Shown here piece by piece: positions 36,991-52,172 of a stretch of DNA of 64,000 bases. The stretch comes from an uncultured Phycisphaerae bacterium (GTDB lineage Bacteria; Planctomycetota; Phycisphaerae; SM23-33): the NCBI GenBank assembly GCA_963760365.1, contig CAVXDC010000007.1, positions 82,728 through 146,727 on the forward strand, read 5' to 3'. Positions within the stretch are counted from its first letter, which is position 1; each line of letters starts with the position of its first letter. The position numbers and the translations under genes are program-made. The notes below the pieces were generated by a model. That model had not been told where the DNA came from. It searched no databases and worked only from the letters and a program-made list of their open reading frames with translations.

Positions 36991-38736
36991 CTAAAACATG
37001 CCCACGACGCCGCCGTTTTCGTCCAGGTCCACGTCCATGAAGGCCGGGCGCGACGGCAGCCCCGGCATCGTCCGCATCATGCCTAGTATCGGATACAAAA
37101 ATCCCGCCCCCGCCGAGGCGCGCACCTCGCGGATGGGTACGGTGAACCCCTTGGGCACCCCCTTGAGGGTCGGGTCGTGCGACAGGCTCAGGTGCGTCTT
37201 GGCCATGCAGATGGGCAGGCGGTTGAGCCCGGCCTTTTCGTACAGACCGATCTGGCGCTCCGCCAGCGGCTCGTAGGTGATCCGCTCGGCCTGATAGACC
37301 TTTTTGGCAATCGTCTCGATCTTGGCCTTGATGGGGAGGTCATCCGCGTAGAGGAACTGGAACTTGCTGGGCTTTTCGCAGGCGGCGGTCACGGCCTTGG
37401 CCAGTTCCACGGCGCCCTGGCCGCCTTTGGCCCAGTGTTCGCAGGGCACGGCGTCTTCCGCCCCGGCCGACTGGGCTGCCTTGCGGACGAACTCCGCCTC
37501 GGCGGCGGTGTCCGTGGGGAACTGGTTCACCGCCACCACCACCGGCACGCCGAACATCTTGACGATCTCGATGTGCCGCACCAGGTTGCAGACGCCTTTC
37601 TCCAGCAGGGCCATGTTCTCTTTGGTGTAGGCCGCATCCAGGGGTTTGCCCGGCACGACTTTGGGGCCGCCCCCGTGCATCTTCAGTGCGCGGATGGTCG
37701 CTATCAGCACCACGCAGTTGGGAATAAGCCCGCTGATGCGGCACTTGATGTCGAAGAACTTCTCCATGCCGATGTCGGCTCCGAAGCCGCTCTCGGTGAC
37801 CACGTAGTCGGCCAGCTTCAAGGCGATCCGATCGGCGACGATGGAATTGTTGCCGTGGGCGATGTTGGCAAAGGGTCCGGCGTGCACAAAGGCGGGTTGG
37901 CCCTCCAACGTCTGCATGAGGTTAGGCTTGATGGCGTCCTTCATCAGCACGGCCATGGCCCCATGGACGCCCAGGTCCTTGGCCGTGATGAACTTTCCCC
38001 GGCGGTCCGTGCCGATGACGATCCGCCCCAGGCGCTCGCGCATGTCCTTCAGGTCGGTCGCCAGCGCCAGGATGGCCATGACCTCGCTGGAGACGGAGAT
38101 GTCGAAGCCCGTCTGTCTCGGTCGGCCGTCTTCGGCGGTGCCCAGCCCCACCACGATGTTGCGCAGCGCCCGGTCGTTGACGTCCACCACCCGCCGCCAG
38201 GTGATGCTATAGGGGTCGATGTCCAGCCGCTTCAGCTTGGCCTTGTCCAGTTCCTTGTCCGACATCTGATCCTCATGCATGATGCGGGCGTCGATGGCCG
38301 CTGCCAGAAGATTGTGCGCGATGGAGACGGCGTGGATATCGCCGGTCAGGTGCAGGTTGAACTCCTCCATCGGGATGACCTGACTATACCCGCCGCCCGC
38401 CGCCCCGCCCTTGATCCCGAACGTCGGTCCCATCGAAGGCTGGCGAATGCACAGAAAGACCTTCTTACCCAGCAGTCCCATCGCCTGCGTCAGGCCCACG
38501 GAGGTGGTGGTCTTGCCCTCTCCCAGCGGCGTCGGCGTGATGGCCGTCACGTCGATGTACTTCCCGTTGGGCCGGTTGGCCAGGCGCTCCAGGATGCTCA
38601 ACTTCACCTTGGCCTTGATGTCGCCGTACGGCTCCAACTCCTCCGGCAGGATGCCGGCTTGCTTGGCGATCTGGGCAATCGGCCGCGGGGTGGCGGCGTG
38701 AGAGATCTCGATGTCCGAGGGAACGGATGCGGCCAT
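36991..38736 (-). CDS. fhs: Formate--tetrahydrofolate ligase
   Basis: Intact 581-aa ORF with [16 protein letters not shown] and family-wide similarity. Confidence 0.93.
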
Positions 38737-38777: not shown

Positions 38778-39614
38778 CTAGGGGTTCTGCCTTTCATGGG
38801 TTCTGTCAGCTAGTCCGGGCGGGCGCCCTTGGCCTTGCATCCGGGCTGCAATCTCCGAAAGGATTCCTTCCACGGCTTTGCGATGGTCCACGAGAACCTC
38901 ACATGGCTCTGCCTTGCCATCGGGAGTCCTCTTGAAGATCCCCCTCGCCAAGCGATCATCCGTCGGCAGATGCCCCAGCAGCGGGATATCCTGAAGCTCG
39001 CCAACGATCTTCTCGATCTCCGCCGGCCGGTTCACCCGGTTGGCCACCGCGTACAGGCGGCGCATCCCCAGGTCTCCGGCCAGCTTCTGCACGCGCCGGG
39101 CGGTCTGCGTGCTCCAAGCGGTGGGGTCCACAACGACAATGAGCCCATCCATGGTCTGGGCGGTGGCCCGGCCGAGATGCTCTAGGCCGGCCTCCATGTC
39201 CATGACCAAAGCCTCCTCCCGGCCGAGCACCAGGTGGACCAACAAGGCCTTCAGCAACGCGGTCGCCGGGCACAGGCAGCCTTCTCCGCCTTTGGCGATA
39301 CCCCCCAGCACGAGCAACCGAATGCCGCCGATCCGCCGGCAATACCGATCGGGGATGTCCTCCACGTGCGGATTCAGTTTGAAGAACGTCCCGTATCCTT
39401 CCTTGGCGCCCGTGCGCTCCTGAATGAGCTCCCGCATGGCGGCCAGGGGGGTGATCGGCTCACTGTCCGGAATCCCCAGGGCCGAGGCTAAATTGGCGTC
39501 CGGATCGGCGTCGATGGCCACAACGCTGTGCCCCTGGAGGCTCAAGGCCGCCGCCAACATGGCCGACAGCGTGGTCTTGCCCACGCCACCTTTGCCGGAT
39601 ATGGCCAACTTCAT
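38778..39614 (-). CDS. cooC: CO dehydrogenase/ACS nickel-insertion accessory ATPase CooC
   Basis: P-loop ISGKGGVGKTT and the CxC metal motif (GEGCLCPA). MinD/ParA-like fold. Confidence 0.85.
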   Translation of the reverse strand: MKLAISGKGGVGKTTLSAMLAAALSLQGHSVVAIDADPDANLASALGIPDSEPITPLAAMRELIQERTGAKEGYGTFFKLNPHVEDIPDRYCRRIGGIRLLVLGGIAKGGEGCLCPATALLKALLVHLVLGREEALVMDMEAGLEHLGRATAQTMDGLIVVVDPTAWSTQTARRVQKLAGDLGMRRLYAVANRVNRPAEIEKIVGELQDIPLLGHLPTDDRLARGIFKRTPDGKAEPCEVLVDHRKAVEGILSEIAARMQGQGRPPGLADRTHERQNP

Positions 39615-40066: not shown

Positions 40067-42016
40067 GTGAAAACGCCGGAGCAACGCAGCGTGGACCCCG
40101 CCACCGTCACCATGCTCACCGAAGCCGCCTCCCAAGGCCTGACCGTGGCCTGGGATCGCCAGGAGGCGATGGAACCACAATGCGGTTTCGGGCAGTTGGG
40201 GATCTGTTGTCGCATTTGCCGGATGGGTCCCTGCCGCATCGACCCCTTCGGCGACGGCACGACCGAGGGCATCTGCGGGGCGACCGCCGACATCATCGCC
40301 GCCCGAAACCTGGTACGGATGATCGCCAGCGGCGCCTCGGCCCATTCCGATCACGGCCGGGACATCGCCCATACGCTGCTTATGGCCGCCGAGAGGGCCG
40401 ATTGCGACTATCGCATCAAGGACCCAATCAAACTCCGCGCCCTGGCCAAGGAGCTGGGCGTGCCCACCGAGGGCAAGGACCTGCGCGAGATCGCCCGCGG
40501 CGTGGCCACCATCGCCTTCAGCCAATTCGGCCAGCAGCACGGGGAGCTGGTCTTCACGGCCCGGGCGCCGCAGGACCAGCGCAGGAGATGGCGCGAGGCG
40601 GGTGTGACGCCCCGCGGCGTGGACCGCGAAGTCGTTGAGATCATGCACCGAACCAACATGGGCGTGGACAACGACCCCGTCAACCTCATCCTCCAGGGCA
40701 TTCGGGCGGCCTTGGCGGACGGCTGGGGCGGTTCGATGATCGCCACGGAGCTGTCCGACGTGCTGTTCCGCTCGCCTACCTGGGTCCGCAGCCGGGCCAA
40801 CCTGGGCATCCTGGATCCGGCGGCCGTGAACATCATCGTCCACGGGCACGAGCCGACACTCTCGGAGATGATTGTCGCGGCCGCCCAGGACAAGGATCTC
40901 CTGGCCTTGGCCAAGAGCAAGGGCGCCAGCGGCATCAATCTGGGGGGCATCTGCTGCACGGCCAACGAGATCCTCATGCGCCACGGCATCCCCCTGGCCG
41001 GGAACTTCCTCCAGCAGGAGCTGGCCGTCGCGACCGGCGTTGTCGAGGCGATGGTGGTGGACGTGCAATGCGTCTTCCCGGCCTTGGGCAAGCTGACCCA
41101 GCAGTTCCACACCAAGTTCATCTCCACCTCTCCCAAGGCCAAGTTCCCTTACGCCCAACACGTCGAGTTCGATGAATCCCGGGCCCTGGAGATCGCCAAA
41201 AAGATCGTCCGCATGGCCATCGAGAACTTCCCCAACCGCAAGACCACCCCCCACGTGCCCCCCGACAGCAACCCGCTGGTGGCCGGTTTCACGGCCGAGA
41301 ACATCGCCACCATGCTGGGTGGACGGTACCGTCCCAGCTATCGGCCCCTCAACGACGCCATCATCTCCGGCCGACTTCGAGGCGTGGCCGGGGTGGTCGG
41401 GTGCAATAACCCGCGTCTTCGCCACGACTACGGCCACCTGGCCATGGCCAAGGAGCTGCTGGCCAACGACGTGCTGGTGGCCGTGACGGGCTGCTCCGCC
41501 GTCGCCGACGCCAAGGCGGGATTGCTTACCCCCGAGGCGGCGGAGCAGTATGGCGGTGCGGGCGTGCAGGAAATCTGCCGGGCCGTCGGCATCCCTCCCG
41601 TGCTGCACCTGGGGTCCTGCGTGGACATCAGCCGGATTCTGGTAGTCCTGTCCAACGTCGTGGCCGAGGGCGGATTAGGACAAAGCATCGCCGACCTGCC
41701 CGTCGCGGGGGCGGCGCCGGAATGGATGAGCGAAAAGGCCGTGTCCATCGGCTTCTACGTCATCGCCTCGGGCGTCTACACGGTGCTGGGCGAGCCGCTG
41801 CCGATCCAGGGCGCCACGCAACTGACGAATTTCCTGTGCGGCGGGATCGAGAAGATGTTCGGTGGCAAGTTCGCCTTCGAGCCGGACCCCGTCAAGGCCG
41901 CCCACCTGATGATCGACCACATCGACGCCAAGCGCGCCGCCCTGCACCTACCGGCTCCGATGTACCCCGTCCCCTACGCCCCGCGCACGGTGGACAAGGC
42001 CAAGGTCGCCGTCTAG
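40067..42016 (+). CDS. cooS: Anaerobic carbon-monoxide dehydrogenase catalytic subunit (CooS/AcsA)
   Basis: CGFGQLGICCRICRMGPCRI (B/D-cluster region), HGHEP, and family-wide similarity. GTG 40067 follows AAGAGG; the ORF opens at 40013. Confidence 0.9.
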   Translation: MKTPEQRSVDPATVTMLTEAASQGLTVAWDRQEAMEPQCGFGQLGICCRICRMGPCRIDPFGDGTTEGICGATADIIAARNLVRMIASGASAHSDHGRDIAHTLLMAAERADCDYRIKDPIKLRALAKELGVPTEGKDLREIARGVATIAFSQFGQQHGELVFTARAPQDQRRRWREAGVTPRGVDREVVEIMHRTNMGVDNDPVNLILQGIRAALADGWGGSMIATELSDVLFRSPTWVRSRANLGILDPAAVNIIVHGHEPTLSEMIVAAAQDKDLLALAKSKGASGINLGGICCTANEILMRHGIPLAGNFLQQELAVATGVVEAMVVDVQCVFPALGKLTQQFHTKFISTSPKAKFPYAQHVEFDESRALEIAKKIVRMAIENFPNRKTTPHVPPDSNPLVAGFTAENIATMLGGRYRPSYRPLNDAIISGRLRGVAGVVGCNNPRLRHDYGHLAMAKELLANDVLVAVTGCSAVADAKAGLLTPEAAEQYGGAGVQEICRAVGIPPVLHLGSCVDISRILVVLSNVVAEGGLGQSIADLPVAGAAPEWMSEKAVSIGFYVIASGVYTVLGEPLPIQGATQLTNFLCGGIEKMFGGKFAFEPDPVKAAHLMIDHIDAKRAALHLPAPMYPVPYAPRTVDKAKVAV

Positions 42017-42040: not shown

Positions 42041-42595
42041 ATGGCCAAGATGATCGTCATCAACGAGCAACGTTGCCTGGGATGCAAGACCTGCGTGTTG
42101 GAATGCGCCATGGCCCACACCGAGGCCAAAAGCCTGGCCGAGGCCGTCGGCAGCCCCTCGCCCCCCCAGTCGCGCGTCCACGTGGAACCCGCCGGTGCGT
42201 ATGGCATCCCCCTCCAGTGCCGCCACTGCCAGGACGCCCCGTGCATGACGGTCTGTCCGACCGAGGCGATCCGCCGCCCCGTCGAGAACGGTCCGGTGCT
42301 CATGGAGGCCGATCGCTGCATAGGCTGTCGGTTCTGCCTGCTGGTGTGCCCCTTCGGCGTCATTGACATGTCGCGGGACGGCAAGGCGATGGTGAAGTGC
42401 GACCTGTGCCTTCAGCGCACCCAGGAGGGCGAGGACCCGGCCTGCGTGGCCGGCTGCCCCACGGGGGCCCTGGAGTATTGCGATGTGAATGACTGGTTGC
42501 GTCGGCGACGCCAGGAGGCCGCCGCCAAGATCGCCGCCGGTGAGGACGCCGCCCGGTTGGCTTTGGAAAACATGGAGAAAAAACGTGAGCGTTGA
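42041..42595 (+). CDS. cooF: CooF-like 4Fe-4S ferredoxin-type electron-transfer protein
   Basis: Multiple CxxCxxCxxxCP motifs (CLGCKTCVLEC, CRHCQDAPC, CIGCRFCLLVCP, CDLC..CVAGCP). Confidence 0.8.
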   Translation: MAKMIVINEQRCLGCKTCVLECAMAHTEAKSLAEAVGSPSPPQSRVHVEPAGAYGIPLQCRHCQDAPCMTVCPTEAIRRPVENGPVLMEADRCIGCRFCLLVCPFGVIDMSRDGKAMVKCDLCLQRTQEGEDPACVAGCPTGALEYCDVNDWLRRRRQEAAAKIAAGEDAARLALENMEKKRER

Positions 42596-43067
42596 CCTGG
42601 AGCTTATCCCCCCGCTGTGTCGCGAGCACCGCGCCGCCGGCGGCAGCTTGGTGATGCTCCTCCAGGAGACGCAGAAGCGCTACGGCTACCTGCCGCGCGA
42701 GGCCCTGCGGGCGATCAGTCGCGAGATGAACATCCCGCTGGCCCGGCTGTACGGGCTGGCGACCTTTTACCGCTCGTTCAGCCTCACCCCCCGAGGCCGG
42801 CACGAGATCACCGTGTGCACCGGCACGGCCTGCCACGTCCGCGGGGCCGCGACGATCCTGGAGCACCTCCAGCGCCGATTACAGGTCCCACCCGGAGGCA
42901 CCACGGCGAACAATGAATTCACGCTGATTACGGTCAACTGCCTGGGGGCCTGCGCCCTGGGGCCCGTGGTGGTCCTGGACGGCAAGTATCACGGAAAGAT
43001 GACGGTGGCCAAGACGGATGAGGTGCTGACGGCCGCGACAGCCCCGTCGGTGGAGGCGGATCGGTGA
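42585..43067 (+). CDS. nuoE: NuoE/HydC-like [2Fe-2S] thioredoxin-like protein
   Basis: LQETQKRYGYLP..ATFY..VCTGTACHVRGA..VNCLGACALGPV. GTG 42585 follows GGAGAA and overlaps cooF by 11 nt. Confidence 0.8.
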   Translation: MSVDLELIPPLCREHRAAGGSLVMLLQETQKRYGYLPREALRAISREMNIPLARLYGLATFYRSFSLTPRGRHEITVCTGTACHVRGAATILEHLQRRLQVPPGGTTANNEFTLITVNCLGACALGPVVVLDGKYHGKMTVAKTDEVLTAATAPSVEADR

Positions 43068-44935
43068 TTGCCCCAGCCAAGGCCAAAATCGCGTCGGCCG
43101 CCGATCTGATCGCCTGGCGCGACCGCCTGACCTCCGCCGGCCGCCGCTACACCAAGACCGTGGCCGTGTGCGGCGGCACAGGCTGCCAGGCCTACGGCTG
43201 CCAGCAAGTGGTCGATGCCTTCGCCAACGAGCTGGCCCGCCGGGGGCTGGGCGACACGGTCCGCCTGCGCTCCACGGGGTGTCACGGGTTCTGCGAGCGC
43301 GGGCCGCTGGCCGTCCTTGGGCCTTCCGGAATCTTCTACCAGCAAATCCGCGTCGAGGACGTACCGCAGATCGTCGACAAGACACTGCTGGGCGGAGAGG
43401 TCATCGAGACACTTCTATACCGCGATCCCAATACCAAGGCCCGCGTGCAGCAGGAACACGAAGTCCCCTTCTACAAGCACCAAAGCCGCTTAGTCTTCGG
43501 TGCCAACGGCCTGATCGACCCGACCCGCATTGATGAGTACGTCGCGATCGGCGGGTACACCGCTCTGGCCAAAGTCCTGGCAAGCATCTCACCCGAGCAG
43601 GTCATCGAGCAAGTCGAGCGGAGCGGCCTTCGCGGCCGGGGCGGAGGGGGTTTCCCCACCGGCAGGAAATGGCGCATCTGCCGCTCCAAAACCGGAGATA
43701 AGAAATTCATCGTCTGCAACGCCGACGAGGGCGACCCCGGCGCCTACATGGACCGCTCCATCCTGGAAGGCAACCCCCACAGCGTGCTGGAAGGCATGCT
43801 GATCGGCGCCTACGCCATCGGCGCCCAGGAAGGCTACGTGTACGTCCGGGCCGAGTACCCCCTGGCCGTGCACAACGTGACCGTCGCCATCGAACAGACC
43901 GAGGCTTACGGCTTGCTAGGCGAGGGCATTTTAGGAAGCCCGTTGAACTTTCACGTGCACGTCAGCCGGGGGGCTGGGGCATTTGTCTGCGGGGAGGAGA
44001 CGGCCCTGATGGCCAGCATCGAAGGTCGATTAGGCACGCCTTCGCCCAAGCCCCCCTACCCCGCCGAGCGGGGCCTGTGGGGCAAGCCCACCGTGATCAA
44101 CAACGTCGAGACTTGGGCCAACGTGCCGCTGATCCTGAATCGCGGGGCCGATTGGTTCGCCGGCATCGGCACGGAAAAGAGCAAGGGCACGAAGGTCTTC
44201 TCGCTGGTGGGCAAGATCAACAACACCGGGCTGGTCGAGGTGCCGATGGGCATCCACCTCCGCGAGATCATCTTCGACATCGGCGGCGGCGTGCCCAAGG
44301 GGCGGAAGTTCAAGGCCGTCCAGACCGGCGGGCCCTCCGGCGGGGTGATCCCCGAATCGCTGCTAGACCTGCCCATCGACTTCGAGGCGCTGACCGAGGT
44401 CGGGGCGATGATGGGTTCGGGCGGCATGATCGTCATGGACGACCGCACCTGCATTGTGGACGTGGCCCGGTACTTCATGAACTTCCTGAGGGAGGAATCC
44501 TGCGGCAAGTGCACCCCCTGCCGCGAGGGCATCAAGAACATGCTGCACGTTTTGACGCGGATCTGCGGCGGCCAGGGCAGCGAGCAGGACCTCGCCCGTC
44601 TGGAGGCCCTGGCGGTGGGCGTTAAAACTGGCTCGCTGTGCGGTCTGGGGACGACGGCGCCCAATCCGGTCCTCAGCACGCTGAAATACTTCAAAGACGA
44701 ATACCTGGCGCACGTGGTGGACAAGCGATGTCCGGCCGGGGTGTGCACGGCCTTGATCCACCTGAGCATCGACCAGGAGACGTGCAAGGCCTGCGGGCGA
44801 TGCCTGAAGGTTTGTCCGACCGACGCGATCCGCGACGGGACGAACAAAGTCCCCGCCAAGATCGAGGCGGACAAGTGCATCCGCTGCCGGGCGTGTTTTG
44901 AAACCTGTCCGTTCGAGGCCGTCGTGATTAACTAG
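43064..44935 (+). CDS. nuoF: NuoF/HydB-like NAD(P)H-binding flavoprotein with an extra N-terminal 2Fe-2S domain and C-terminal 2x[4Fe-4S]
   Basis: N-terminal CGGTGCQAYGC..CHGFCERGP; GRGGGGFPTGRKW and NADEGDPGAYMDR (FMN/NADH site); ESCGKCTPCREG; C-terminal CKACGRCLKVCP and CIRCRACFETCP. Confidence 0.85.
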   Translation: MIAPAKAKIASAADLIAWRDRLTSAGRRYTKTVAVCGGTGCQAYGCQQVVDAFANELARRGLGDTVRLRSTGCHGFCERGPLAVLGPSGIFYQQIRVEDVPQIVDKTLLGGEVIETLLYRDPNTKARVQQEHEVPFYKHQSRLVFGANGLIDPTRIDEYVAIGGYTALAKVLASISPEQVIEQVERSGLRGRGGGGFPTGRKWRICRSKTGDKKFIVCNADEGDPGAYMDRSILEGNPHSVLEGMLIGAYAIGAQEGYVYVRAEYPLAVHNVTVAIEQTEAYGLLGEGILGSPLNFHVHVSRGAGAFVCGEETALMASIEGRLGTPSPKPPYPAERGLWGKPTVINNVETWANVPLILNRGADWFAGIGTEKSKGTKVFSLVGKINNTGLVEVPMGIHLREIIFDIGGGVPKGRKFKAVQTGGPSGGVIPESLLDLPIDFEALTEVGAMMGSGGMIVMDDRTCIVDVARYFMNFLREESCGKCTPCREGIKNMLHVLTRICGGQGSEQDLARLEALAVGVKTGSLCGLGTTAPNPVLSTLKYFKDEYLAHVVDKRCPAGVCTALIHLSIDQETCKACGRCLKVCPTDAIRDGTNKVPAKIEADKCIRCRACFETCPFEAVVIN

Positions 44936-44948
44936 GAAGCAATCCGAC

Positions 44949-45761
44949 ATGACTGATGAGACGTTCCAACTCACCGTGGACGGTCAGAAGGTTGAAGCTC
45001 GCTCGGGCAAGACGCTCCTTGCGGTCTGCCGCCGGATGGGCAAGGACATCCCCACCCTCTGCCACCACGAGTCGTTGGAGCCCTACGCGGCCTGCCGCGT
45101 GTGCCTGGTGGAGGTGAGCTCTGCCGGCAGGAGTAGCCTGGTGCCCTCCTGCCAATATCCAGCCTCGGAGGATTTAGAGGTTCAGACGGACTCCCCAGCC
45201 GTCCGGCAGGTGCGGCGGATCGTCCTGGAGCTGCTGTTGGCGCACTGCCCGGCCAGCGATGTGGTACGGGACCTGGCGGCCAAGTACGGGGTGACGGAAA
45301 CGCCCTATCCGACCGACGACCCCAACGAGACTTGCATCGTCTGCGGGCTGTGCGTCCGCGCCTGCGAGGAGGTCCTTCGCATCGCGGCCATCGGCTTCGC
45401 CGGAAGGGGCGTGGAACGCCGGGTGGGCTCCCCGTTCGACGAGGCCTCGGACGTCTGCATCGGATGCGGCGCCTGCGTGGCCGTCTGCCCCACCGGACAT
45501 GTCGCCACCATCGACGATGGGCCGCTGCGTCGGATGAAGACGTGGAAGACCAACGTGGACCTGGCCCGCTGCCAGACCTGCGGGCGGCCGTTCGCCCCGC
45601 TGCGGCAACTGGAGCACATCCGCCCCCTCCTGCCCCAGCACGTGCCGCTGGAGCAAGTCTGTCCCCTCTGCCGGCGGTCGCAGACGGCCCAGCGTGTAGC
45701 CAAGGGTGAAATCGAAGCCCTCTTAAACAGCACCTCAAGCGGAGCAGCTTTAAAGCGATAG
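44949..45761 (+). CDS. 2Fe-2S plus 4Fe-4S iron-sulfur protein (NuoG/HydA N-terminal-like, no catalytic domain)
   Basis: Plant-type 2Fe-2S N-terminus (TLCHHESLEPYAACRVCLVEV), then CIVCGLCVRACE and CIGCGACVAVCP. At 270 aa it is too short to carry a hydrogenase or FDH domain. Confidence 0.7.
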   Translation: MTDETFQLTVDGQKVEARSGKTLLAVCRRMGKDIPTLCHHESLEPYAACRVCLVEVSSAGRSSLVPSCQYPASEDLEVQTDSPAVRQVRRIVLELLLAHCPASDVVRDLAAKYGVTETPYPTDDPNETCIVCGLCVRACEEVLRIAAIGFAGRGVERRVGSPFDEASDVCIGCGACVAVCPTGHVATIDDGPLRRMKTWKTNVDLARCQTCGRPFAPLRQLEHIRPLLPQHVPLEQVCPLCRRSQTAQRVAKGEIEALLNSTSSGAALKR

Positions 45762-45776: not shown

Positions 45777-47957
45777 ATGTCGAAGCAAGTCATAGCGTCG
45801 GTCATTCGGGGCTCTCACGCCTTCGTCCAGGAGGCTGAATCGGGCCTGGCCCAAGCCATCAAGGACAAAGGGGAGGATTTTAAAATTCAGTTCCCTGAGA
45901 CGGCCTTTTTCCTGCCGATGACCTATTCCCTGATGGGCCTGGAGGTCCGGTCGCTGGCCGACATGAAACCCCTGATGGCACACTGCCGCGAGCTGCTGCC
46001 GCAAGAGCCATCCGAGCGCCTGTGGCTGCCGTACCTGGGCGACGGCCTGGACGCCGGGATTGCGACCCTGCTGGCCCTGGAGGCCACGTGCGCCCTCCGT
46101 TACGCCAACAAGGAATCCATCGAGGAGGGTTGCACAGGCTTCATCTCCGACACGGTGCTCCGCGAGTTGGGCATCCAGTTAGTGGACGGCCGGATGCCAG
46201 GCTTTGCCGCCATCCTGGGCCCGGCCCCCAGCAACGCCGTCGCCGTGAACACGGTCCGCGAGCTTCAGAAGCGAAGCATCCTGACCTTCCTGCTGTGCGC
46301 CCGCGATGGTAAGAGCATGAAGGACCAGCTCATCGCCGAGGGCGTGGAGCTGGGCTGGGACACATACATCGTGCCCGTCGGGAGGGACACGCACTCGGCT
46401 ATCTACGTGCTGGACTGGGCCATTCGCGGGGCGCTGATGTTTGGCGGCCACAAGAAGGGCGAGTGGCGCAACTGCCTGAAATACTGCAAGGACCGCATCT
46501 TCGCCTTCGGCATCACGTTCGGGCCGATCCCCGACGACTGGTACGCCGTGGGCGCCGGGGCCATCGCGATGGGCTTCCCGGTCATCAGCGATCACGAATC
46601 CACCCCGGAAGTCCATCCCACGGGCGTCACGACCTACGAGGCCCTGGTCCGCCAGACCGATCCGGCGCAGTTGGTGCCCACGTGCGTGCAGGTGCGGGGC
46701 GTGAAGGTCAAGGTCGAGGAGGTCAACATCCCGGTGTCCTATTCCCCGGCCTTTGAGGGCGAGCGGATCCGTCGGGAAGACATGCACGCGCAGTTCGGCG
46801 GGAAGTACTCCCGCGCGGTGGAGCTGCTGGAATCCGCCCCCCTGGAGGAGATCACCGACGGCCAGATCACCGTTCGCGGCCAGGACCTGGACGCCGTCGC
46901 CGAGGGCGGGGCGGCCGACCTGGCCGTGCACGTCCGCGTGGCGGGACGGAAAATGAAAAAGGACTTCGAGGGCATCCTGGAACGCCAGATCCACCGCTAC
47001 TGCAACGGCGCGATGGGCTTCATGCACACCGGTCAGCGCGACCAGATTTGGTGCCGCGTCAGCAAGGCGGCGATCAAGGCGGGGTTCCGCCTCAAACACA
47101 TCGGCACGATCCTCCACGCCAAGCTGCACGATGAATACGGCGGCATCGTGGACAAGATCGCCGTCGCCCTCACGACCCACAGCGACAAGGTGGCCGCCTT
47201 GATCCAGCGCGCCAAGCCCATCTGCAATGCCCGCGACGAGCGGGTGGCGGACATGACGGATGAGTCCGTGGACACCTTCTACTCTTGCACGCTGTGCCAG
47301 TCCTTCGCCCCCAACCACGTGTGCATCATCACACCCGAGCGGCTGGGGTTGTGCGGGGCGTACAACTGGCTGGACGGCCAGGCGGCGTACGAGATCAACC
47401 CCACTGGTTGCAACCAGCCGGTGCCAAAGAGCCGATGCATCAACGAGCCGAACGGCGAGTGGGAGGGCGTCAACAAGTTCGTGCACGAACGCTCCAACGG
47501 CTCGGTGAACCAGTTCAGCGCCTACAGCCTGCTGCAATCCCCCATGACCTCCTGCGGGTGCTTCGAATGCATCATCGCGATCGTCCCCGAGGCCAACGGG
47601 GTGATGGTCGTCAACCGCGAGTACACCGGCGACACGCCGATCGGCATGCCGTTCTCGACGCTGGCCGGCAGCGTCGGCGGCGGGGCACAGACGCCGGGCT
47701 TTTTGGGCGTCGGCCGACTGTACCTGTCCAGCCGGAAGTTCATCCGGGCCGAGGGCGGACTGCCCCGGCTGGTCTGGATGCCCAAGGAACTCAAGGAATA
47801 CATGCGCGAGCGGCTGGAAAAACGCGCCGCCGAGATGAAATTGACGGCCTTTGTGGACAAGATTGCCGATGAGACCGTCGCGACGACTTCAGACCAGCTC
47901 CTGGAGCACCTCCAACGCGTGGGACACCCGGCCTTGAGCATGAGCTCGCTGATGTAG
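45777..47957 (+). CDS. acsB: CO-methylating acetyl-CoA synthase (AcsB)
   Basis: Intact 726-aa ORF with AcsB-like sequence throughout, including the A-cluster Cys-Gly-Cys segment (SPMTSCGCFECI). Confidence 0.9.
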   Translation: MSKQVIASVIRGSHAFVQEAESGLAQAIKDKGEDFKIQFPETAFFLPMTYSLMGLEVRSLADMKPLMAHCRELLPQEPSERLWLPYLGDGLDAGIATLLALEATCALRYANKESIEEGCTGFISDTVLRELGIQLVDGRMPGFAAILGPAPSNAVAVNTVRELQKRSILTFLLCARDGKSMKDQLIAEGVELGWDTYIVPVGRDTHSAIYVLDWAIRGALMFGGHKKGEWRNCLKYCKDRIFAFGITFGPIPDDWYAVGAGAIAMGFPVISDHESTPEVHPTGVTTYEALVRQTDPAQLVPTCVQVRGVKVKVEEVNIPVSYSPAFEGERIRREDMHAQFGGKYSRAVELLESAPLEEITDGQITVRGQDLDAVAEGGAADLAVHVRVAGRKMKKDFEGILERQIHRYCNGAMGFMHTGQRDQIWCRVSKAAIKAGFRLKHIGTILHAKLHDEYGGIVDKIAVALTTHSDKVAALIQRAKPICNARDERVADMTDESVDTFYSCTLCQSFAPNHVCIITPERLGLCGAYNWLDGQAAYEINPTGCNQPVPKSRCINEPNGEWEGVNKFVHERSNGSVNQFSAYSLLQSPMTSCGCFECIIAIVPEANGVMVVNREYTGDTPIGMPFSTLAGSVGGGAQTPGFLGVGRLYLSSRKFIRAEGGLPRLVWMPKELKEYMRERLEKRAAEMKLTAFVDKIADETVATTSDQLLEHLQRVGHPALSMSSLM

Positions 47958-47977: not shown

Positions 47978-49320
47978 ATGGCCCTGACGGGATTGGACAT
48001 CTACAAGCGCCTCCCGAAAGAGAACTGCCGCGAGTGCGGCGTGCCGACGTGCCTGGCGTTTGCGATGAAGGTCGCCTCCGGCCAGGCGGGACTGGACGCC
48101 TGCCCGCGTTTGTCGGCCGAGGCCCGCGCCGAGCTGAGCGAGGCCTCCGCCCCGCCGCAGCGGCTGGTGAAAATCGGACCGGACCCCAATCCCCTCCAGG
48201 TGGGTCAGGAGACGGTCCTGTTCCGCCACGACGACAAGTTTTACAACCCCCCCGCCGTGGCGTTGAGACTCTGCGATACCCACCCGCCCGACGTGTTGCG
48301 GCAGGCGTGCGCGGTGTTCAAGCAACTCCAGTTCCCCCGCGTCGGTGAGATTCTCCACCCGGACATGATCGCGCTGGTCAACGAGTCCGGCTCCCTCGAC
48401 AAGTTCCAAGCAGCCGCGGAGATCCTCCACAAAGAGCTGGGCGTGCCTATGGTGTTGATGAGCCAACAGCTCGATAGCCTTACGGCCGTAGCGACAAGCG
48501 TGCTGGCCGGCGCCAGGCCCGTGCTCTACGCCACCGGCCAGGCATCGGTGGAAGACTTGGCGGGCTTGGCTGAAAAGACCGGCGCGCCCTGTGCGTGGCG
48601 GGCCCGTTGGAGGCCATCGCGGAGCGTGTCGAGGCGTTGGGCGCCAAGGGCGTCAAGAACGTCCTGATCTCTCCGGGCGACGCAAGGCCGTCACAGGCGT
48701 TGGCCTTTTTGACCCAGACCCGCCGGGCCGCGCTGAACAAGAAGTTCCGTCCCTTGGGGTGTCCGGTGCTGGCCATTGCCTGCGGGGATGATAAAGACGC
48801 CGCTGCCCTGGACGCCTGCGCGTACGTCTGTAAGTACGCCGCCGTCGTCATCTCCGACGCCTGGCAGCCGTACCAGCTCCTGCCGATCCTGACCACGCGA
48901 CAGAACATCTACACCGATCCCCAAAAGCCGGTGCAGGTCGAAGCCAAACTCTACGAGATCGGCGACATCGCCGACACCAGCCCCCTGCTGGTGACTACGA
49001 ACTTCTCGCTGAGCTACTACGCGGTGGAGTCGGAGGTGGAAGCCTCGCGCATCCCCTGCCGCATCCTGGCGGTGGACACCGAAGGCACCAGCGTGCTGAC
49101 GAGCTGGGCGGCGGACAAGTTCAACCCCAAGACGATCACCGCTGCCTTGAAGGCCAGCGGCGTCAAGGAGAAGATGAACCGCCGTCGCCTTATCATTCCC
49201 GGCCTGGTGGCCGTCATGTCCGCCTCGCTGGCGGATGAATCGGGCTGGGAGGTCCTGGTCGGTCCCAAAGAGGCTTCGGGGATCGGACCGTTCCTCAAGA
49301 CCGAGTGGAAAAGCACCTGA
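47978..49320 (+). pseudogene. acsC: Corrinoid iron-sulfur protein large subunit (AcsC); one frame break as assembled
   Basis: N-terminal Fe-S motif LPKENCRECGVPTCLAFAMKV, followed by TIM-barrel and corrinoid-binding parts. The junction is near 48588, where gcgccctgtgcg appears to need one more C. Confidence 0.85.
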
Positions 49321-49431: not shown

Positions 49432-51372
49432 ATGGCCAAAACTTACACAGTGGAGTTCAGGCCCGACGGGGTGACGGTGGAGGTCCCCGCCGGGTACGAC
49501 GATCCTGGCCGCCGCGGCCAAGGCGGGCGTGTTCATCAACTCCTTGTGCGGCGGCGAGGGCGTCTGCGGGCGCTGCCGCGTGATCGTCCGCGCAGGGGAC
49601 GGTCTCCGGCGGCTCCATCGAGTTCTTCACCCGCCAGGAGATTCAGCAGGGCTACATCCTGGCCTGCCAGGGACGCGTCGAGTCGGACCTGGTGGTGGAG
49701 ATCCCCCCCGAGACCCGCCTGGCCGGCGCGCCGGAACACGTGCCGGGCGAAGTGCCCTTCCTGGCCGACCTGGCAAGTTGGCCGGCCGGGGCGTGCCGCT
49801 GTCCCCGCTGGTCCGCAAGACGCTACCTTGACTTGACGCCCCCCAGCCTGGAGGACAACGTCTCCGACCTGCAGCGGCTGGAGCAGGTGCTGGGTAAGGC
49901 CATTGGCTGCAAGGACTTCCAGATGGGGCTGAAGGTCACCCGCCTGCTGCCCGCACCTGCTGCGCAAGGCCGACTGGAAGGTGACCGCCGTGACCGGCTA
50001 TCGCGGGCCGCTGACGGAGATCATCGACGTGGAGGCCGGCGACACCAGCACGGCGGAACTTCTGCATCGCCGCCGACATCGGCACCACCACCGTGGTCTG
50101 CCACCTGGTGGACCTGCGCGACGGGCAGACGCTGGGCCGGGCGGCCAAGTACAACTCCCAGGCCGCCTACGGCGCCGACGTGATCCGCCGGATCATCCAC
50201 GCCTCCCAAAGCCCCGACAACGAACGGGCCCTGCGGGAGGCGATCGTCGGCGACCTCAACGAGCTGATCCGGGAGCTGACGACCCGCTACCGGCTGGGAC
50301 CGGCGGACATCTCGCTGATCTCCGCGGCCGGCAACACCACGATGATGCACCTGATGCTGGGGCTGCCGGCGGAGAACATCCGCAAGGAGCCCTACGTCGG
50401 GCGCGGCCTACCACCTGCCGCCCTTCCGCGCGGCGGAGGTCGGGCTGCAGATCAACCCGCGCGGGCTGCTGTACTGCCTGCCGTGCGTGGCCGGGTTCGT
50501 GGGGGCGGACCTGGTGGCCGGCATCTACGCCACGGGCCTGGCGCACAGCGACGAGGTGCGCATGCTGATCGACATCGGCACCAACGGGGAGATCGTCATC
50601 GGCAACCAGGACTTCCTGGTCTGCGCCAGCGCCTCGGCCGGGCCGGCCTTCGAGGGGGCCGAATGCCGCAGCGGCATGCGGGCCACCCGCGGGGCGATCG
50701 ACCACATCCGCCTGGCCGACGCCGAGCACGTGCTGAACTACTCCACGGTCGGCTCGGCGCCGCCGGCGGGCATCTGCGGCACCGGCTACGTGGACCTGGT
50801 GGCGGAGATGCTGCGGGTGGGCCTGATCGACAGGACCGGGCGGCTGAACCGCGATGCCGCGGCCGGAAGGATCCGCCTCGGCCGGCACGGCGAGCTGGAG
50901 TGGCTGGTCGTTCCGGCCGCGCAGACCGGCACCACAGGCGGACATCACCATCACCCAGGGCGACATCAACAACCTCCTGCGGGCCAAGGGGGCGATCTAC
51001 GCGGCCGCGACGGTCCTGCTGAACGCCCTGAACATGACCTTCGACGGACGTGGCGGAGATCATGGTGGCCGGGGCGTTCGGCAACTTCCTGAACCTCGGC
51101 AACGCCGTGTTCATCGGCCTGCTGCCGGACGTGTCCCCCGGACCGCCTGCGTTTCGTGGGCAACACCTCCATCGCCGGGGCGAAGCTGGCGGCCACTGTG
51201 CACCGAGTGCTACGAGGAGATGTTCGACATCGCCGCGCGAACGACGTACTTCGAGCTGAGCACCGATCCGACGTTCATGGACCAGTTCGTCTCGGCCTGC
51301 TTCTTCCCGCACACGAACATCGAGCTGTTCCCGCGCGTCATGGCCGAGATGGCGGCCGGGAGGCGAGCCTAG
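49432..51372 (+). pseudogene. Reductive activator of the corrinoid Fe-S protein (RACo / orf7-type, 2Fe-2S plus ASKHA ATPase); ~11 frame breaks as assembled
   Basis: The sequence reads MAKTYTVEFRPDG, then CGGEGVCGRCRV (2Fe-2S), ADIGTTTVV, IDIGTNGEIV, GICGTGYVDL, ITQGDINNLLRAKGAIYAA and ends FFPHTNIELFP. The pieces are spread over all three frames (ORFs 49432, 49529, 49692, 49981, 50093, 50487, 50854, 51050, 51156). Confidence 0.75.
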
Positions 51373-51374
51373 AG

Positions 51375-52172
51375 ATGGCCGAGTACGCATCCTGGCATTC
51401 AGCGGCAAAGGCGGCTCGGGCAAGACCACGCTGGCGGCGATGGTCCTGCGGCAGCTGGTCCGCGCGGGGATCAAGCCCATCCTGGCCGTGGACGCCGACC
51501 CCAACGCGACGCTGGGCCTGACGCTGGGCGTGCCCGTGGAGGACACGATCGCCGACCTCCGCGACCGGATGGGCCAGGCCGCCGCCAAGGTCAGCGAAAT
51601 CCCCAAGGAGCGGCTGATGGACCAGTGGCTGGCCGAGGTGCTCACCGAGGAGCAGCGGCTTTGACCTGCTGACGATGGGCCGGCCGGAAGGCCCCAAGTG
51701 CTACTGCTACGTCAACGGCCTGCTGCGGCGCTACCTCAAGGAGCTGCGCGGCGCCTATCCGGTCGTGGTGGTGGACTGCGAGGCGGGGATGGAGTATCTT
51801 TCGCGCCTGACGGTGGACGACGTGGACGTGCTGGTCCTGGTGGCCGAGGCCACGTCGGTCGGGCTGACCAGCGCCCGCCGCATCGCCCAACTGGCCGATC
51901 GCTCTGCCGGTCCGCGTCGGACGCCGCGTGCTGGTGCTGAACAAGGTCGGCCAGCCGGGCCTGGCCGGAGACTGCTTCCGAAGGCGAAGACCTGGACGTC
52001 CCGGGCGTCAGCGCGATCGTTCGCGTGCCGTTCGACGAGGACCTGTACCGCCGCTGCGCCCAGGGCCTGCCGCTGGACGATCAGGCCGGCCAGGCGGCGC
52101 GGCCGGCCATCGAGGCGCTGGCCCGGCTGTGCCTGCCGCAACCTGCACCCGGACGCGCCAACGCACCGGTAA
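51375..52172 (+). pseudogene. Second CooC/AcsF-type Ni-insertion ATPase; ~5 frame breaks as assembled
   Basis: ILAFSGKGGSGKTTLAAMV..ILAVDADPNATLG..GPKCYCYVNG (CxC)..VVVVDCEAGMEYLSR. The probable stop is TAA 52170-52172, just before the AAGGAG ribosome-binding site (RBS) of acsD. Confidence 0.7.

What the first reader, a model, noticed from the sequence alone, without database searches (positions are those of the whole stretch)
42041..45761. CooF plus a HydC/HydB-type (NuoE/NuoF) flavoprotein plus an Fe-S protein wedged between acsA and acsB: a candidate NAD(P)H-linked, possibly bifurcating CODH/ACS
What the sequence shows: four intact genes sit between cooS/acsA and acsB and are packed tightly. 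The junctions are a 24-nt gap, an 11-nt overlap, a 4-nt overlap, a 13-nt gap and a 15-nt gap to acsB, so co-translation with the CODH and ACS genes is likely. The NuoF-like protein has the FMN/NADH motifs (GGGGFPTGRKW, NADEGDPGAYMDR). It also has an extra N-terminal thioredoxin-like 2Fe-2S domain and two C-terminal 4Fe-4S motifs. The 270-aa partner has only the 2Fe-2S/4Fe-4S part of NuoG/HydA, without any catalytic domain.
Established knowledge: this NuoE/NuoF architecture is the diaphorase/bifurcating module of HydABC-type hydrogenases and related formate dehydrogenases.
Inference: no hydrogenase or FDH catalytic subunit is present in the locus, so the only available catalytic partner is the Ni-CODH (via CooF). 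That suggests CO/CO2 redox chemistry coupled to NAD(P)(H), with or without ferredoxin, and physically tied to ACS. I do not know of a characterised complex with exactly this composition.
Basis: partly seen in the sequence, partly recalled or inferred. Interest (0 to 1): 0.7.

Follow-up and report, generated by a model that had tools for sequence, protein, structure and literature searches.

The report
Electron-bifurcating module inside a CODH/ACS operon
Between the CO dehydrogenase and acetyl-CoA synthase genes of a probable planctomycete lies a complete HydABC-type (Bfu) flavin/iron-sulfur module plus a CooF wire. This suggests that its carbon-fixing enzyme exchanges electrons with NADH and ferredoxin together, which has been proposed for stand-alone CO dehydrogenases but never shown, and not described for the acetyl-CoA synthase complex.

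Summary

- **What the genes are.** The three "Nuo-like" genes are a full BfuC/BfuB/BfuA set of the HydABC ("Bfu") electron-bifurcating family. BfuB keeps every cofactor site, including the Cys4-His site that the family's authors report as absent from non-bifurcating homologues.
- **Closest structure.** BfuA is a short "type 2" subunit. Its closest solved relative over the full length is WorA of the bifurcating tungsten aldehyde oxidoreductase WorABCSL (PDB 9MQX). CooF is homologous to that enzyme's WorS wire subunit.
- **Conservation.** The window's gene string recurs in nine other loci: probable Phycisphaerae contigs, an Actinomycetes MAG and three untyped metagenome contigs. Other orders (bfuCBA-cooS-acsB) occur in an Anaerolineales MAG and three further metagenome contigs. 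Two distinct BfuB lineages are involved.
- **No rival catalytic partner.** The 64-kb window holds no hydrogenase or formate dehydrogenase.
- **Prior work.** A "Codh-Bfu/CodhABCSF" enzyme was already proposed from genomes (2022, 2025). It covered only Firmicutes, had no acetyl-CoA synthase and was never purified.

My verdict is a new variant of a known, still uncharacterised kind. Function is inferred, not shown. The acs genes downstream of acsB are frame-broken in this assembly, probably through sequence errors.

The parts
36991..38736 (-). [quoted passage not shown]
   Evidence: 581-aa ORF. It is 92% identical to the PF01268 FTHFS gene of L001 in the same position.
38778..39614 (-). CooC-type Ni-insertion ATPase, divergent from cooS
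   Evidence: 88% identical to the CbiA/ArsA_ATPase-family gene of L001. The same position is kept in L004, L083, L084 and L086.
40067..42016 (+). CooS/AcsA, Ni-Fe CO dehydrogenase catalytic subunit (ORF opens at 40013; likely start GTG 40067 behind AGAGG)
   Evidence: Matches TIGR01702 at 643 bits (cut-off 478) and Prismane at 8e-165. The best solved relative is 6t7j_B; the next two, 6ytt_B and 9fzy_B, are named CODH subunits of CODH/ACS complexes. It is the only CODH gene in the window. P0126 is 100% identical and 649 aa long.
42041..42595 (+). CooF, polyferredoxin with 16 Cys in four CxxCxxCxxxC(P)-type motifs, predicted to bind four [4Fe-4S] clusters, plus a charged C-terminal tail
   Evidence: Fer4_11 at 3e-22. 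Homologous to HycB3/HycB4 (3.5e-26), AorA (8c0z_C) and WorS 9mqx_E (3e-23, residues 1-165 against 1-150 of 152). Cys positions.
42585..43067 (+). BfuC (HydC/NuoE-like), [2Fe-2S] subunit; overlaps cooF by 11 nt
   Evidence: PF01257 at 3e-45. Below the NCBIfam cut-offs for HoxE and NuoE. Cluster Cys at 78, 83, 119 and 123. The same 11-nt overlap occurs in L082 and L083.
43064..44935 (+). BfuB (HydB/NuoF-like) flavoprotein. It carries an N-terminal [2Fe-2S] (B5), the FMN/NAD(H) site, the B1 [4Fe-4S], the Cys4-His B2/Zn site and a C-terminal 2x[4Fe-4S] (B3, B4) ferredoxin-docking domain.
   Evidence: Pfam domains. Best solved relatives are subunits of bifurcating enzymes: 7t2r_B (830 bits), 7q4v_B, 9mqx_B and 8a6t_B. 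Ligands C463, C501, H550, C556 and C561 align with A. mobile C438, C476, H525, C531 and C536. FMN/NADH motifs are at residues 193, 219 and 303.
44949..45761 (+). BfuA, short 'type 2' form. It has the A1 [2Fe-2S], two [4Fe-4S] (A2, A4), no His-ligated A3 cluster, a C-terminal Cys4 zinc-finger-like site and a long terminal helix.
   Evidence: Full-length match to WorA 9mqx_A (3e-46, residues 6-249 against 5-241). AlphaFold2 model has pLDDT 95 with helix 239-265. Foldseek top hit is 9mqx_A with TM 0.83/0.90 and rmsd 2.1 A. Invariant Cys are 38/49/52/68, 129/132/135/139, 170/173/176/180 and 208/211/238/241.
45777..47957 (+). AcsB, acetyl-CoA synthase (A-cluster) subunit with the N-terminal CODH-contacting domain
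   Evidence: NF040764 at 976 bits (cut-off 800); also CODH_A_N, CdhC and ACS_CODH_B_C.
47978..49320 (+). AcsC (corrinoid Fe-S protein large subunit), split by a 1-nt deletion near 48587 in this assembly
   Evidence: Two tblastn pieces in different frames, 89-90% identical to the intact 447-aa AcsC of L001.
49432..53971 (+). RACo, AcsF/CooC-type ATPase, AcsD and AcsE. All are recognisable but broken by about 20 uncompensated 1-nt indels.
   Evidence: tblastn against L001 proteins switches frame 3-4 times per gene while keeping mostly 84-98% identity (lower in RACo and at the start of AcsD). Indel list; codon-phase plot.

Best explanation
**Proposed enzyme.** The five genes cooS-cooF-bfuC-bfuB-bfuA encode a 'Codh-Bfu' enzyme built on the plan of the solved WorABCSL complex.

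**Proposed electron path.**
- The CooS dimer interconverts CO2 and CO at its Ni-Fe C-cluster.
- Electrons pass through the four [4Fe-4S] clusters of CooF to clusters A4-A2-A1 of the short BfuA. BfuA is predicted to hold CooF through its zinc-finger and terminal-helix end.
- From BfuA they reach the BfuBC core (FMN, B1, B5, C1). There four mid-potential electrons are split, or in reverse merged, between NAD(H) at the FMN and ferredoxin at the C-terminal B3/B4 domain.
- Overall: 2 CO + 2 H2O + NAD+ + 2 Fd(ox) <-> 2 CO2 + NADH + 2 Fd(red) + 3 H+.

**Link to acetyl-CoA synthase.** This CooS is the only CODH of the operon and sits next to an AcsB that has the CODH-docking domain. The same CODH is therefore inferred to feed or drain the CO tunnel of acetyl-CoA synthase. 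[quoted passage not shown]

**Thermodynamic rationale (my inference from textbook values, not computed here).** CO2/CO alone is about -520 mV. CO2 reduction coupled to the exergonic ACS step (about -20 kJ/mol) gives an effective couple near -400 mV. That is the same mid-potential range as H2 and formate, the classical third substrates of Bfu enzymes.

**Shown versus inferred.**
- Shown: gene content, cofactor ligands, homology, fold and conserved linkage.
- Inferred: complex formation, bifurcation, direction of flow and coupling to ACS.
For: 1. **Bfu family features are all present in the sequence.**
   - The domain set is complete.
   - BfuB's top solved relatives are subunits of bifurcating complexes.
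   - BfuB keeps the His and four Cys of the B2/Zn site, which Schut et al. report as absent from non-bifurcating homologues.
   - It also keeps the N-terminal 2Fe-2S and C-terminal 2x[4Fe-4S] domains.
2. **There is a structural precedent.**
   - BfuA matches WorA (9MQX_A) over its full length in sequence (3e-46) and in fold (TM 0.83/0.90). The match includes the Cys4 finger and a terminal helix.
   - CooF is homologous to WorS. The 9MQX paper itself predicts a CodhABCSF built this way.
3. **The linkage is conserved and does not depend on gene order.**
   - The same order occurs in L001, L082, L083, L084, L004 (Actinomycetes), L110 and L143.
   - It occurs with a regulatory insert in L085, L086 and L166.
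   - bfuCBA-cooS-acsB occurs in L073 (Anaerolineales), L128, L147 and L157.
   - Two separate BfuB lineages occupy this position.
4. **The genes look like one operon.** Junctions range from -11 to +24 nt, every gene has a ribosome-binding site, and no + strand terminator is found.
5. **No alternative catalytic partner is nearby.** The window has no hydrogenase, FDH, Hdr or MetF and only one CODH gene.
6. **CooS resembles ACS-bound CODHs (6ytt, 9fzy)**, and AcsB carries the CODH_A_N domain.
Against: - No Codh-Bfu has ever been purified, so nothing here is biochemical.
- For free CO the couple (-520 mV) is already below ferredoxin, so bifurcation is not needed. Schut et al. raise this puzzle themselves.
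- CODH-linked BfuB sequences are not monophyletic. They nest among Por- and Hdr-linked modules. This could also be read as a portable NADH/ferredoxin-balancing unit that is merely co-regulated with ferredoxin-dependent enzymes.
- In L085 and L086 three regulatory genes separate cooF from bfuC.
- NAD versus NADP specificity was not determined.
- I could not compute any interface with CooF, CooS or AcsB.
- In this assembly the acs genes after acsB are frame-broken, so function in this particular genome cannot be taken for granted.
Confidence: 0.55

Rival explanations
1. BfuCBA is a soluble NADH:ferredoxin oxidoreductase that stands alone or associates only loosely. It would be co-expressed with an ordinary ferredoxin-dependent CODH/ACS to balance the NADH and ferredoxin pools. 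Electrons would then reach the CODH through free ferredoxin, not through a fixed CooF-BfuA wire.
For: The nearest BfuB/BfuA relatives sit next to quite different ferredoxin-dependent enzymes (POR, Hdr), and CODH-linked modules are polyphyletic. This fits a portable redox-balancing unit. Regulatory genes interrupt the string in L085 and L086.
Against: - A BfuABC with no third substrate has no thermodynamic reason to bifurcate.
- The short BfuA with zinc finger and terminal helix is, in the one solved case, a docking device for a CooF-like subunit.
- CODH-linked BfuA proteins carry a C-terminal tail that the two Por-linked ones aligned here lack.
- In the loci where a CooF gene was detected it is encoded with the module, beside cooS or upstream of bfuC, as WorS is in WOR.
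Confidence: 0.2
2. The module is attached to CooS through CooF but does not bifurcate. It would act as a plain NAD(P)+-reducing diaphorase (CO:NAD(P)+ oxidoreductase), functionally like the CooS-CooF-FNOR systems or the HoxEFU diaphorase.
For: CO has ample driving force to reduce NAD+ directly. The NCBIfam hits include HoxE and HoxU models. Source annotations call BfuA relatives 'bidirectional hydrogenase diaphorase subunit'.
Against: - The HoxE and HoxU scores are far below the curated cut-offs (146 against 224; 115 against 333).
- BfuB keeps the extra N- and C-terminal cluster domains and the His/Cys4 site that mark the bifurcating family, and that are reported as absent from non-bifurcating homologues.
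- No FNOR-type FAD/NAD(P) oxidoreductase gene is present.
Confidence: 0.15
3. The Bfu module serves another partner. That could be a hydrogenase or methylene-THF reductase encoded elsewhere, or the reductive activation of the corrinoid protein by RACo. Its position in the operon would then reflect only co-regulation of Wood-Ljungdahl functions.
For: One relative (L086) has [NiFe]-hydrogenase large and small subunits, HycI, MTHFR and DUF5981 just upstream on the other strand. RACo needs a low-potential electron source.
Against: Those genes are absent from the window and from L001, L083 and L084. Across gene orders the module stays next to cooS/cooF, not next to RACo or acsCD. A bifurcating NiFe enzyme uses a long BfuA with the A3 and A5 clusters, not this short form.
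Confidence: 0.07

Closest known systems
WorABCSL, the electron-bifurcating tungsten aldehyde oxidoreductase of Acetomicrobium mobile (PDB 9MQX; PMC12318220)
   Same: The BfuBC core is the same. BfuA is the same short form, with no A3 cluster, a Cys4 zinc finger and a terminal helix: 38% identity, TM 0.83/0.90. The CooF-like polyferredoxin (WorS against CooF, 3e-23) links the catalytic subunit to BfuA.
   Different: The catalytic subunit here is a Ni-Fe CODH, not a tungstopterin enzyme. The genes also lie inside a CODH/ACS operon. Stoichiometry and any nanowire formation are unknown.
Predicted 'Codh-Bfu' (Schut et al. 2022, PMC9304861), also called 'CodhABCSF' (PNAS 2025, PMC12318220). Source organisms are Acetohalobium arabaticum, Clostridium cellulovorans and Sporomusa silvacetica.
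   Same: BfuABC plus CooS plus Fe-S subunit(s) in one gene cluster. The proposed reaction is CO oxidation coupled to NAD+ and ferredoxin reduction. It is likewise uncharacterised.
   Different: - Only 4 sequences were reported, all from Firmicutes.
- In two of those clusters the CODH genes sit between bfuB and bfuA.
- Acetyl-CoA synthase is not mentioned.
- Here the module is wedged between cooS/cooF and acsB, in probable Planctomycetota and also in Actinomycetes and Anaerolineales MAGs.
- The nearest BfuB relatives are Por- and Hdr-linked.
- Common descent with the Firmicutes set was not tested.
HydABC bifurcating [FeFe]-hydrogenases, NiFe-HydABCSL and the HylABC-FdhF2 formate dehydrogenase
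   Same: BfuB is most similar to A. mobile NiFe-HydB (830 bits) and A. woodii HydB (783 bits), with all cofactor ligands kept. The logic of a third substrate feeding BfuA is the same.
   Different: There is no H-cluster, NiFe or molybdopterin domain or subunit. BfuA is truncated to its cluster-binding N-terminal part.
Por-Bfu (pyruvate:ferredoxin oxidoreductase-linked Bfu of Chloroflexi and Syntrophia)
   Same: These are among the closest sequence relatives of BfuB (57-63%) and BfuA (40-47%). BfuA has the same short architecture with the Cys4 finger.
   Different: The partner genes are porGAB rather than cooS/cooF/acsB. In the two Por-linked BfuA aligned, the protein ends right after the second CxxC, without the C-terminal tail.
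Classical ferredoxin-dependent bacterial CODH/ACS (Moorella thermoacetica, Clostridium autoethanogenum, Carboxydothermus hydrogenoformans)
   Same: CooS is most similar to the CODH subunits of these complexes. AcsB, AcsC, AcsD, AcsE, RACo and CooC/AcsF are present in the usual order.
   Different: As far as I know, none of these operons carries cooF-bfuCBA between acsA and acsB. Their CODH is reduced by free ferredoxin (established knowledge, not tested here).
CooS-CooF-FNOR and CooS-CooF-Ech systems (for example Rhodospirillum rubrum)
   Same: A CooS-CooF pair acts as the CO-oxidising, electron-wiring unit.
   Different: The acceptor here is a Bfu flavoprotein module, not an FAD/NAD(P) oxidoreductase or a membrane hydrogenase. 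Neither of those is present.

Membership tests
Bfu (BfuABC/HydABC) electron-bifurcating family, as defined in PMC9304861 | BfuB carries the Nuo51 FMN-binding, SLBB, Nuo51 4Fe-4S-binding and 4Fe-4S ferredoxin-type domains | tested here: met
   Complex1_51K at 3e-45, NADH_4Fe-4S at 4e-32 and C-terminal Fer4 domains are clear. SLBB is only weak (E 6e-4, 20 bits against cut-off 27). The full-length alignment to HydB/WorB structures covers that region.
Bfu (BfuABC/HydABC) electron-bifurcating family | BfuC has the NuoE-type thioredoxin-like [2Fe-2S] domain. BfuA has at least a 2Fe-2S ferredoxin-type domain and a 4Fe-4S ferredoxin-type domain. All three are encoded together. | tested here: met
   PF01257 at 3e-45 for BfuC; Fer2_4 plus Fer4_7 for BfuA. 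The genes are contiguous, with a 4-nt overlap and a 13-nt gap.
Bfu (BfuABC/HydABC) electron-bifurcating family | The conserved His plus Cys ligands of the B2/Zn site in BfuB, reported as absent from non-bifurcating homologues, together with the extra N-terminal 2Fe-2S and C-terminal 2x[4Fe-4S] | tested here: met
   C463, C501, H550, C556 and C561 align with A. mobile C438, C476, H525, C531 and C536. Cys 36/41/73/77 and 574-615 are present.
Bfu (BfuABC/HydABC) electron-bifurcating family | Catalyses mutually dependent reduction of NAD+ and ferredoxin by a third substrate | not testable with these tools
   This needs the purified enzyme.
Codh-Bfu / CodhABCSF (predicted subtype) | CooS and Fe-S (CooF-type) subunit genes lie inside the same cluster as bfuABC, with a type 2 BfuA | tested here: met
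   The arrangement is conserved in relatives.
Codh-Bfu / CodhABCSF (predicted subtype) | BfuB belongs to the published Codh sub-clade (clade 49, Firmicutes) | not tested
The host is probably Planctomycetota. BfuB's best solved relative is a clade-49 enzyme (7t2r_B), but its nearest genomic relatives are Por- and Hdr-linked.
Respiratory complex I N-module (NuoE/NuoF/NuoG) | Scores above the NuoE/NuoF/NuoG equivalog cut-offs, with adjacent nuoA-N genes | tested here: not met
   NuoF TIGR01959 scores 489 against cut-off 559, NuoE NF005722 scores 135 against 141, and NuoG TIGR01973 scores 92 against 470. No other nuo genes were seen among the ORFs scanned across the window.
HoxEFU diaphorase of bidirectional [NiFe]-hydrogenase | Scores above the HoxE and HoxU equivalog cut-offs, with adjacent hoxYH genes | tested here: not met
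   HoxE scores 146 against 224 and HoxU scores 115 against 333. No hydrogenase genes are in the window.
Bacterial CODH/ACS | A CooS/AcsA catalytic subunit and an AcsB with the CODH-contacting N-terminal domain, plus AcsC, AcsD, AcsE and maturation genes | tested here: met
   TIGR01702 scores 643 (cut-off 478) and NF040764 scores 976 (cut-off 800), with CODH_A_N present. AcsC, RACo, AcsF, AcsD and AcsE are all recognisable but frame-broken in this assembly; they are intact in L001, L082 and L084.
CooS-CooF-FNOR | An FAD/NAD(P)-dependent pyridine-nucleotide oxidoreductase gene next to cooS-cooF | tested here: not met
   No such domain appears in any operon protein.

The most novel reading that the evidence does not exclude
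In Phycisphaerae-like Planctomycetota, and in some Actinomycetota and Chloroflexota, the acetyl-CoA synthase complex is a single bifurcating or confurcating machine (ACS-CODH-CooF-BfuABC). Its CO2/acetyl-CoA half-reaction would be coupled to NADH and ferredoxin together. That would halve the ferredoxin cost of the carbonyl branch, or let acetyl-CoA cleavage make reduced ferredoxin. This would be a bioenergetic variant of the Wood-Ljungdahl pathway that has not been described.
Probability: 0.4. Interest if true: 0.8.

Novelty: new variant of a known kind. Interest (0 to 1): 0.6.

Why it matters
Energy budgets of the Wood-Ljungdahl pathway assume that CO2 reduction to CO costs two low-potential ferredoxin electrons. 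That assumption sets how close acetogens, syntrophic acetate oxidisers and many uncultured subsurface bacteria live to the thermodynamic limit.

- If the CODH of the acetyl-CoA synthase complex is wired to a Bfu module, half of those electrons could come from, or go to, NADH. That would change predicted ATP yields and the need for Rnf, Ech or Nfn in these lineages.
- **A possible answer to an open puzzle.** The Bfu authors asked why a -520 mV substrate would need bifurcation. Coupled to the ACS step, the effective potential is near -400 mV, in the range of H2 and formate.
- **A test case.** The locus gives an expressible example for the still uncharacterised Codh-Bfu class. It also bears on engineering NADH-linked CO2 fixation.

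Tried and rejected
**Searches that led nowhere**
- An exact look-up of the window's BfuB in the contig index found no record, although a 100%-identical cluster (P0001) exists. I therefore could not recover the source contig or its taxonomy directly.
- The cluster-member look-up gave no accession or organism name.
The window's own species is not among the loci returned.
It still yielded 9 CODH-linked loci out of 80.
- I looked for a prior description of bfu/nuoEF genes inside the acs operon. The only find was a COG-level remark in Inoue et al. [quoted passage not shown] Subscription journals were not searchable.

**Readings considered and rejected**
- Complex I N-module and HoxEFU diaphorase: the scores fall below curated cut-offs and no partner genes are present.
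- FNOR-type CODH: no such domain is present.
- Recent insertion of a hydrogenase or FDH diaphorase: the arrangement is conserved and no such catalytic genes are nearby.
- Old pseudogenisation of the downstream acs genes: in AcsC, AcsF, AcsE and most of AcsD the fragments keep roughly 84-98% identity to the intact relative, like the intact genes. The indels are almost all single inserted bases, and similar frame switches occur elsewhere in the window.

**Not attempted**
- Multimer structure prediction, because the tool folds single chains only.
- NAD versus NADP specificity.

Full report
**1.

On the + strand the window carries these genes:

| Gene | Coordinates | Note |
|---|---|---|
| cooS | ORF 40013-42016 | likely start GTG 40067 behind AGAGG, giving 649 aa, the length of the 100%-identical database protein P0126 |
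| cooF | 42041-42595 | |
| NuoE-like | 42585-43067 | |
| NuoF-like | 43064-44935 | |
| 270-aa Fe-S protein | 44949-45761 | |
| acsB | 45777-47957 | |

- The junctions are a 24-nt gap, an 11-nt overlap, a 4-nt overlap, a 13-nt gap and a 15-nt gap, exactly as reported.
- Each start has a GGAG-type ribosome-binding site.
- The simple scan finds no terminator-like site on the + strand between 39400 and 48200.
- Codon-position GC (GC3 0.83-0.89, GC2 0.43-0.51) marks all of them as real genes in this 65% GC sequence.
The two quoted flavoprotein motifs are at residues 193 and 219.
- cooC (38778-39614) and fhs (36991-38736) lie divergently upstream.

**2. The three "Nuo-like" genes are a Bfu module**

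They are not complex I or Hox genes. All NuoE/F/G and HoxE/U equivalog scores fall below the curated cut-offs. Instead they meet the published definition of the BfuABC (formerly HydABC) electron-bifurcating family.

*BfuB*
- The 623-aa protein is most similar to subunits of solved bifurcating enzymes: A. mobile NiFe-HydB 7t2r_B (830 bits), A. woodii HydB, WorB 9mqx_B and T. kivui HydB. Complex I NuoF scores about half as much.
- It keeps the N-terminal [2Fe-2S] ligands, the FMN/NADH motifs, the B1 cluster motif and the eight Cys of the C-terminal ferredoxin-like domain.
- It also keeps all five ligands of the B2/Zn site (C463, C501, H550, C556, C561). The family's authors report that this His is present in virtually all BfuB sequences and absent from non-bifurcating homologues.

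*BfuA*
- The 270-aa protein is a short "type 2" BfuA. It has the A1 [2Fe-2S] and two [4Fe-4S] sites.
- The His-ligated A3 site is lost: the sequence reads LLAHCP, which is not conserved in relatives.
- There is a C-terminal Cys4 site (C208, C211, C238, C241), invariant in 50 homologues.
- Its best solved relative, over the full length, is WorA of the electron-bifurcating tungsten aldehyde oxidoreductase (9mqx_A, 3e-46).
- An AlphaFold2 model (pLDDT 95) ends in a long helix at residues 239-265. It superposes on WorA with TM 0.83/0.90 and rmsd 2.1 A, well ahead of any other structure.
- In WorABCSL that zinc finger and terminal helix recruit WorS, a polyferredoxin that carries the catalytic subunit.

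*CooF*
- The window's CooF has 16 Cys in four cluster motifs. It is homologous to WorS (3e-23, nearly full length), HycB3/4 and AorA.

**3. CooS and AcsB look like a normal CODH/ACS pair**

- CooS's best solved relative is 6t7j_B. The next two, 6ytt_B and 9fzy_B, are named as CODH subunits of CODH/ACS complexes.
- AcsB has the N-terminal CODH-contacting domain.
- No second CODH gene is in the window.
- No hydrogenase, formate dehydrogenase, Hdr or MetF gene appears among the ORFs scanned across the 64 kb.

**4. The linkage is conserved and independent of gene order**

*Same order as the window*
- L001, whose BfuB is 93% identical, has the same string from fhs to acsE with every gene intact.
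- So do L082 (77%) and L083 (75%), and L084, whose CooS is 89% identical.
- The Actinomycetes MAG L004 has the same order, as do metagenome loci L110 and L143.

*Other orders*
- bfuCBA-cooS-acsB occurs in the Anaerolineales MAG L073 and in L128, L147 and L157.

*A mosaic version*
- CooS relatives at 75% identity (L085, L086) keep the arrangement, but with three regulatory genes (a 95-aa protein, a PAS protein and a SpoIIE-type phosphatase) between cooF and bfuC.
- Their BfuB and AcsB are only 59% and 48-50% identical to the window's. The cooS part and the bfuCBA-acsB part therefore have different histories.

*Tree and sampling*
- In a neighbour-joining tree of 85 BfuB sequences, the CODH-linked ones fall into two separate clades among Por-linked and Hdr-linked modules. 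Joint monophyly has 5% bootstrap support.
- Nine of 80 metagenome loci recovered with a BfuA profile are CODH-linked.
- Repeated association in different orders and with different module lineages is the strongest computational argument for a functional coupling.

*Host*
- Named close relatives of CooS and BfuA come from Phycisphaerae/Planctomycetota MAGs.
- The window also has LptC, KdsD-like and OprB genes of a diderm bacterium.
- The host is therefore probably a member of the Phycisphaerae. This is an inference.

**5. Mechanism proposed**

By analogy with WorABCSL, the CooS dimer passes electrons through the four clusters of CooF to A4-A2-A1 of BfuA, and on to the BfuBC core. There electron pairs are partitioned between NAD(H) at the FMN and ferredoxin at the B3/B4 domain.

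Because this CooS is the operon's only CODH and neighbours a docking-competent AcsB, the same CODH should serve acetyl-CoA synthase.

Schut et al. noted that bifurcation is hard to rationalise for free CO at -520 mV. My inference uses textbook free energies that I did not verify here. Coupling to the exergonic ACS step (roughly -20 kJ/mol) lifts the effective couple to about -400 mV. That lies between NADH and ferredoxin, like H2 and formate, so a Bfu module makes energetic sense in either direction of the pathway.

The steps that are shown are gene content, ligands, homology, fold and conserved synteny. Complex formation, bifurcation, nucleotide specificity and the ACS link are inferred.

**6. 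Rivals**

- A free NADH/ferredoxin balancing unit, merely co-regulated with CODH/ACS (0.2).
- An attached but non-bifurcating diaphorase (0.15).
- A module serving another partner, such as the hydrogenase/MetF genes seen next to fhs in L086 only (0.07).

The docking-type BfuA, the presence of CooF wherever it was detected, the bifurcation-type BfuB signature and the constant adjacency to cooS/cooF argue against them. None of the rivals is excluded.

**7. Comparison with the literature**

- A "Codh-Bfu" was proposed from four Firmicutes gene clusters. In two of them the CODH genes sit between bfuB and bfuA, and ACS is not mentioned (PMC9304861).
- A "CodhABCSF" modelled on WorABCSL was proposed for Sporomusa silvacetica and was explicitly not purified (PMC12318220).
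- Inoue et al. 2019 listed NuoEFG-type COGs among proteins in the Wood-Ljungdahl context group of CODHs.
- In the searchable literature I found no description of the module wedged into the acs operon, nor of its presence in Planctomycetota, Actinomycetota or Chloroflexota.
- I therefore rate it a new variant of a known but uncharacterised kind.

**8. Caveat on this assembly**

- From 48587 to about 54000 the genes for AcsC, RACo, AcsF, AcsD and AcsE are interrupted by about 20 uncompensated single-base indels relative to L001. Most fragments stay 84-98% identical at the protein level, with lower values in RACo and at the start of AcsD.
- Similar codon-phase switches occur at 0-3.3 kb, 16.9-17.9 kb and 54-58 kb.
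- This pattern fits patchy assembly or sequencing error better than decay, but only read mapping can decide.
- The eight genes from fhs to acsB are intact.

Noticed in passing
window 48587-54000 (also 1-3300, 16900-17900, 54300-58200): The acs genes after acsB (AcsC, RACo, AcsF, AcsD, AcsE) are broken by about 20 uncompensated 1-nt indels, mostly single inserted bases, relative to the intact 93%-related locus L001. Most fragments keep 84-98% protein identity. Codon-phase switches of the same kind occur in other patches of the window. This looks like patchy assembly error rather than pseudogenes.
   Followed up: partly
L085:11990-17699 and L086:11976-17709: In Phycisphaerae relatives with 75% identical CooS, three regulatory genes (a 95-aa protein, a PAS protein and a SpoIIE/PP2C phosphatase) sit between cooF and bfuC. 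The bfuCBA-acsB block belongs to a different lineage (BfuB 59%, AcsB 48-50%) that groups with an Anaerolineales MAG. The operon is therefore mosaic.
   Followed up: partly
L086:2090-6717: One relative has [NiFe]-hydrogenase small and large subunits, HycI, DUF5981 and MTHFR directly beside fhs on the opposite strand. These genes are absent from the window and from L001, L083 and L084.
   Followed up: no
window 18006-18114 (+): A SAM riboswitch (RF00162, 61.8 bits) lies upstream of a fused MetX-like hydrolase/MetW gene at 18266-20095.
   Followed up: no
window 12159-17869 (-): A cluster of tetrapyrrole genes typical of the siroheme-dependent (alternative) haem pathway. It comprises a fused NirDL/AhbAB-like protein, two radical-SAM proteins (one with a SPASM domain), a fused TP_methylase/HemD and HemC. 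HemC appears frame-shifted.
   Followed up: no
window 10326-11921 (-): A second pterin-binding methyltransferase (31% identical to AcsE of L001) lies next to a FocA-type formate/nitrite transporter, about 25 kb upstream of the acs operon.
   Followed up: no
window 31112-36906 (+): A sensor kinase (HAMP-PAS-HATPase), a response regulator with GAF and HD domains, and a response regulator with GGDEF lie directly upstream of fhs. The same three genes occupy this position in L001, so they may regulate the Wood-Ljungdahl genes.
   Followed up: no
window 54439-56117 (+): After acsE come a small conserved hypothetical gene, then DUF3786, AAA_26 and DRTGG-domain genes. DUF3786 also follows acsE in L001 and L082. 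Its function is unknown.
   Followed up: no
L005, L012, L020 and about 20 other loci; L013 and others: Among the 80 genome loci recovered by BfuB similarity (55-65% identity), 22 sit next to porGAB (Por-Bfu) and 31 next to hdrA/hdrB-type genes. Many of these loci have short type-2 BfuA subunits. This gives a sense of how widely the module is re-used.
   Followed up: partly
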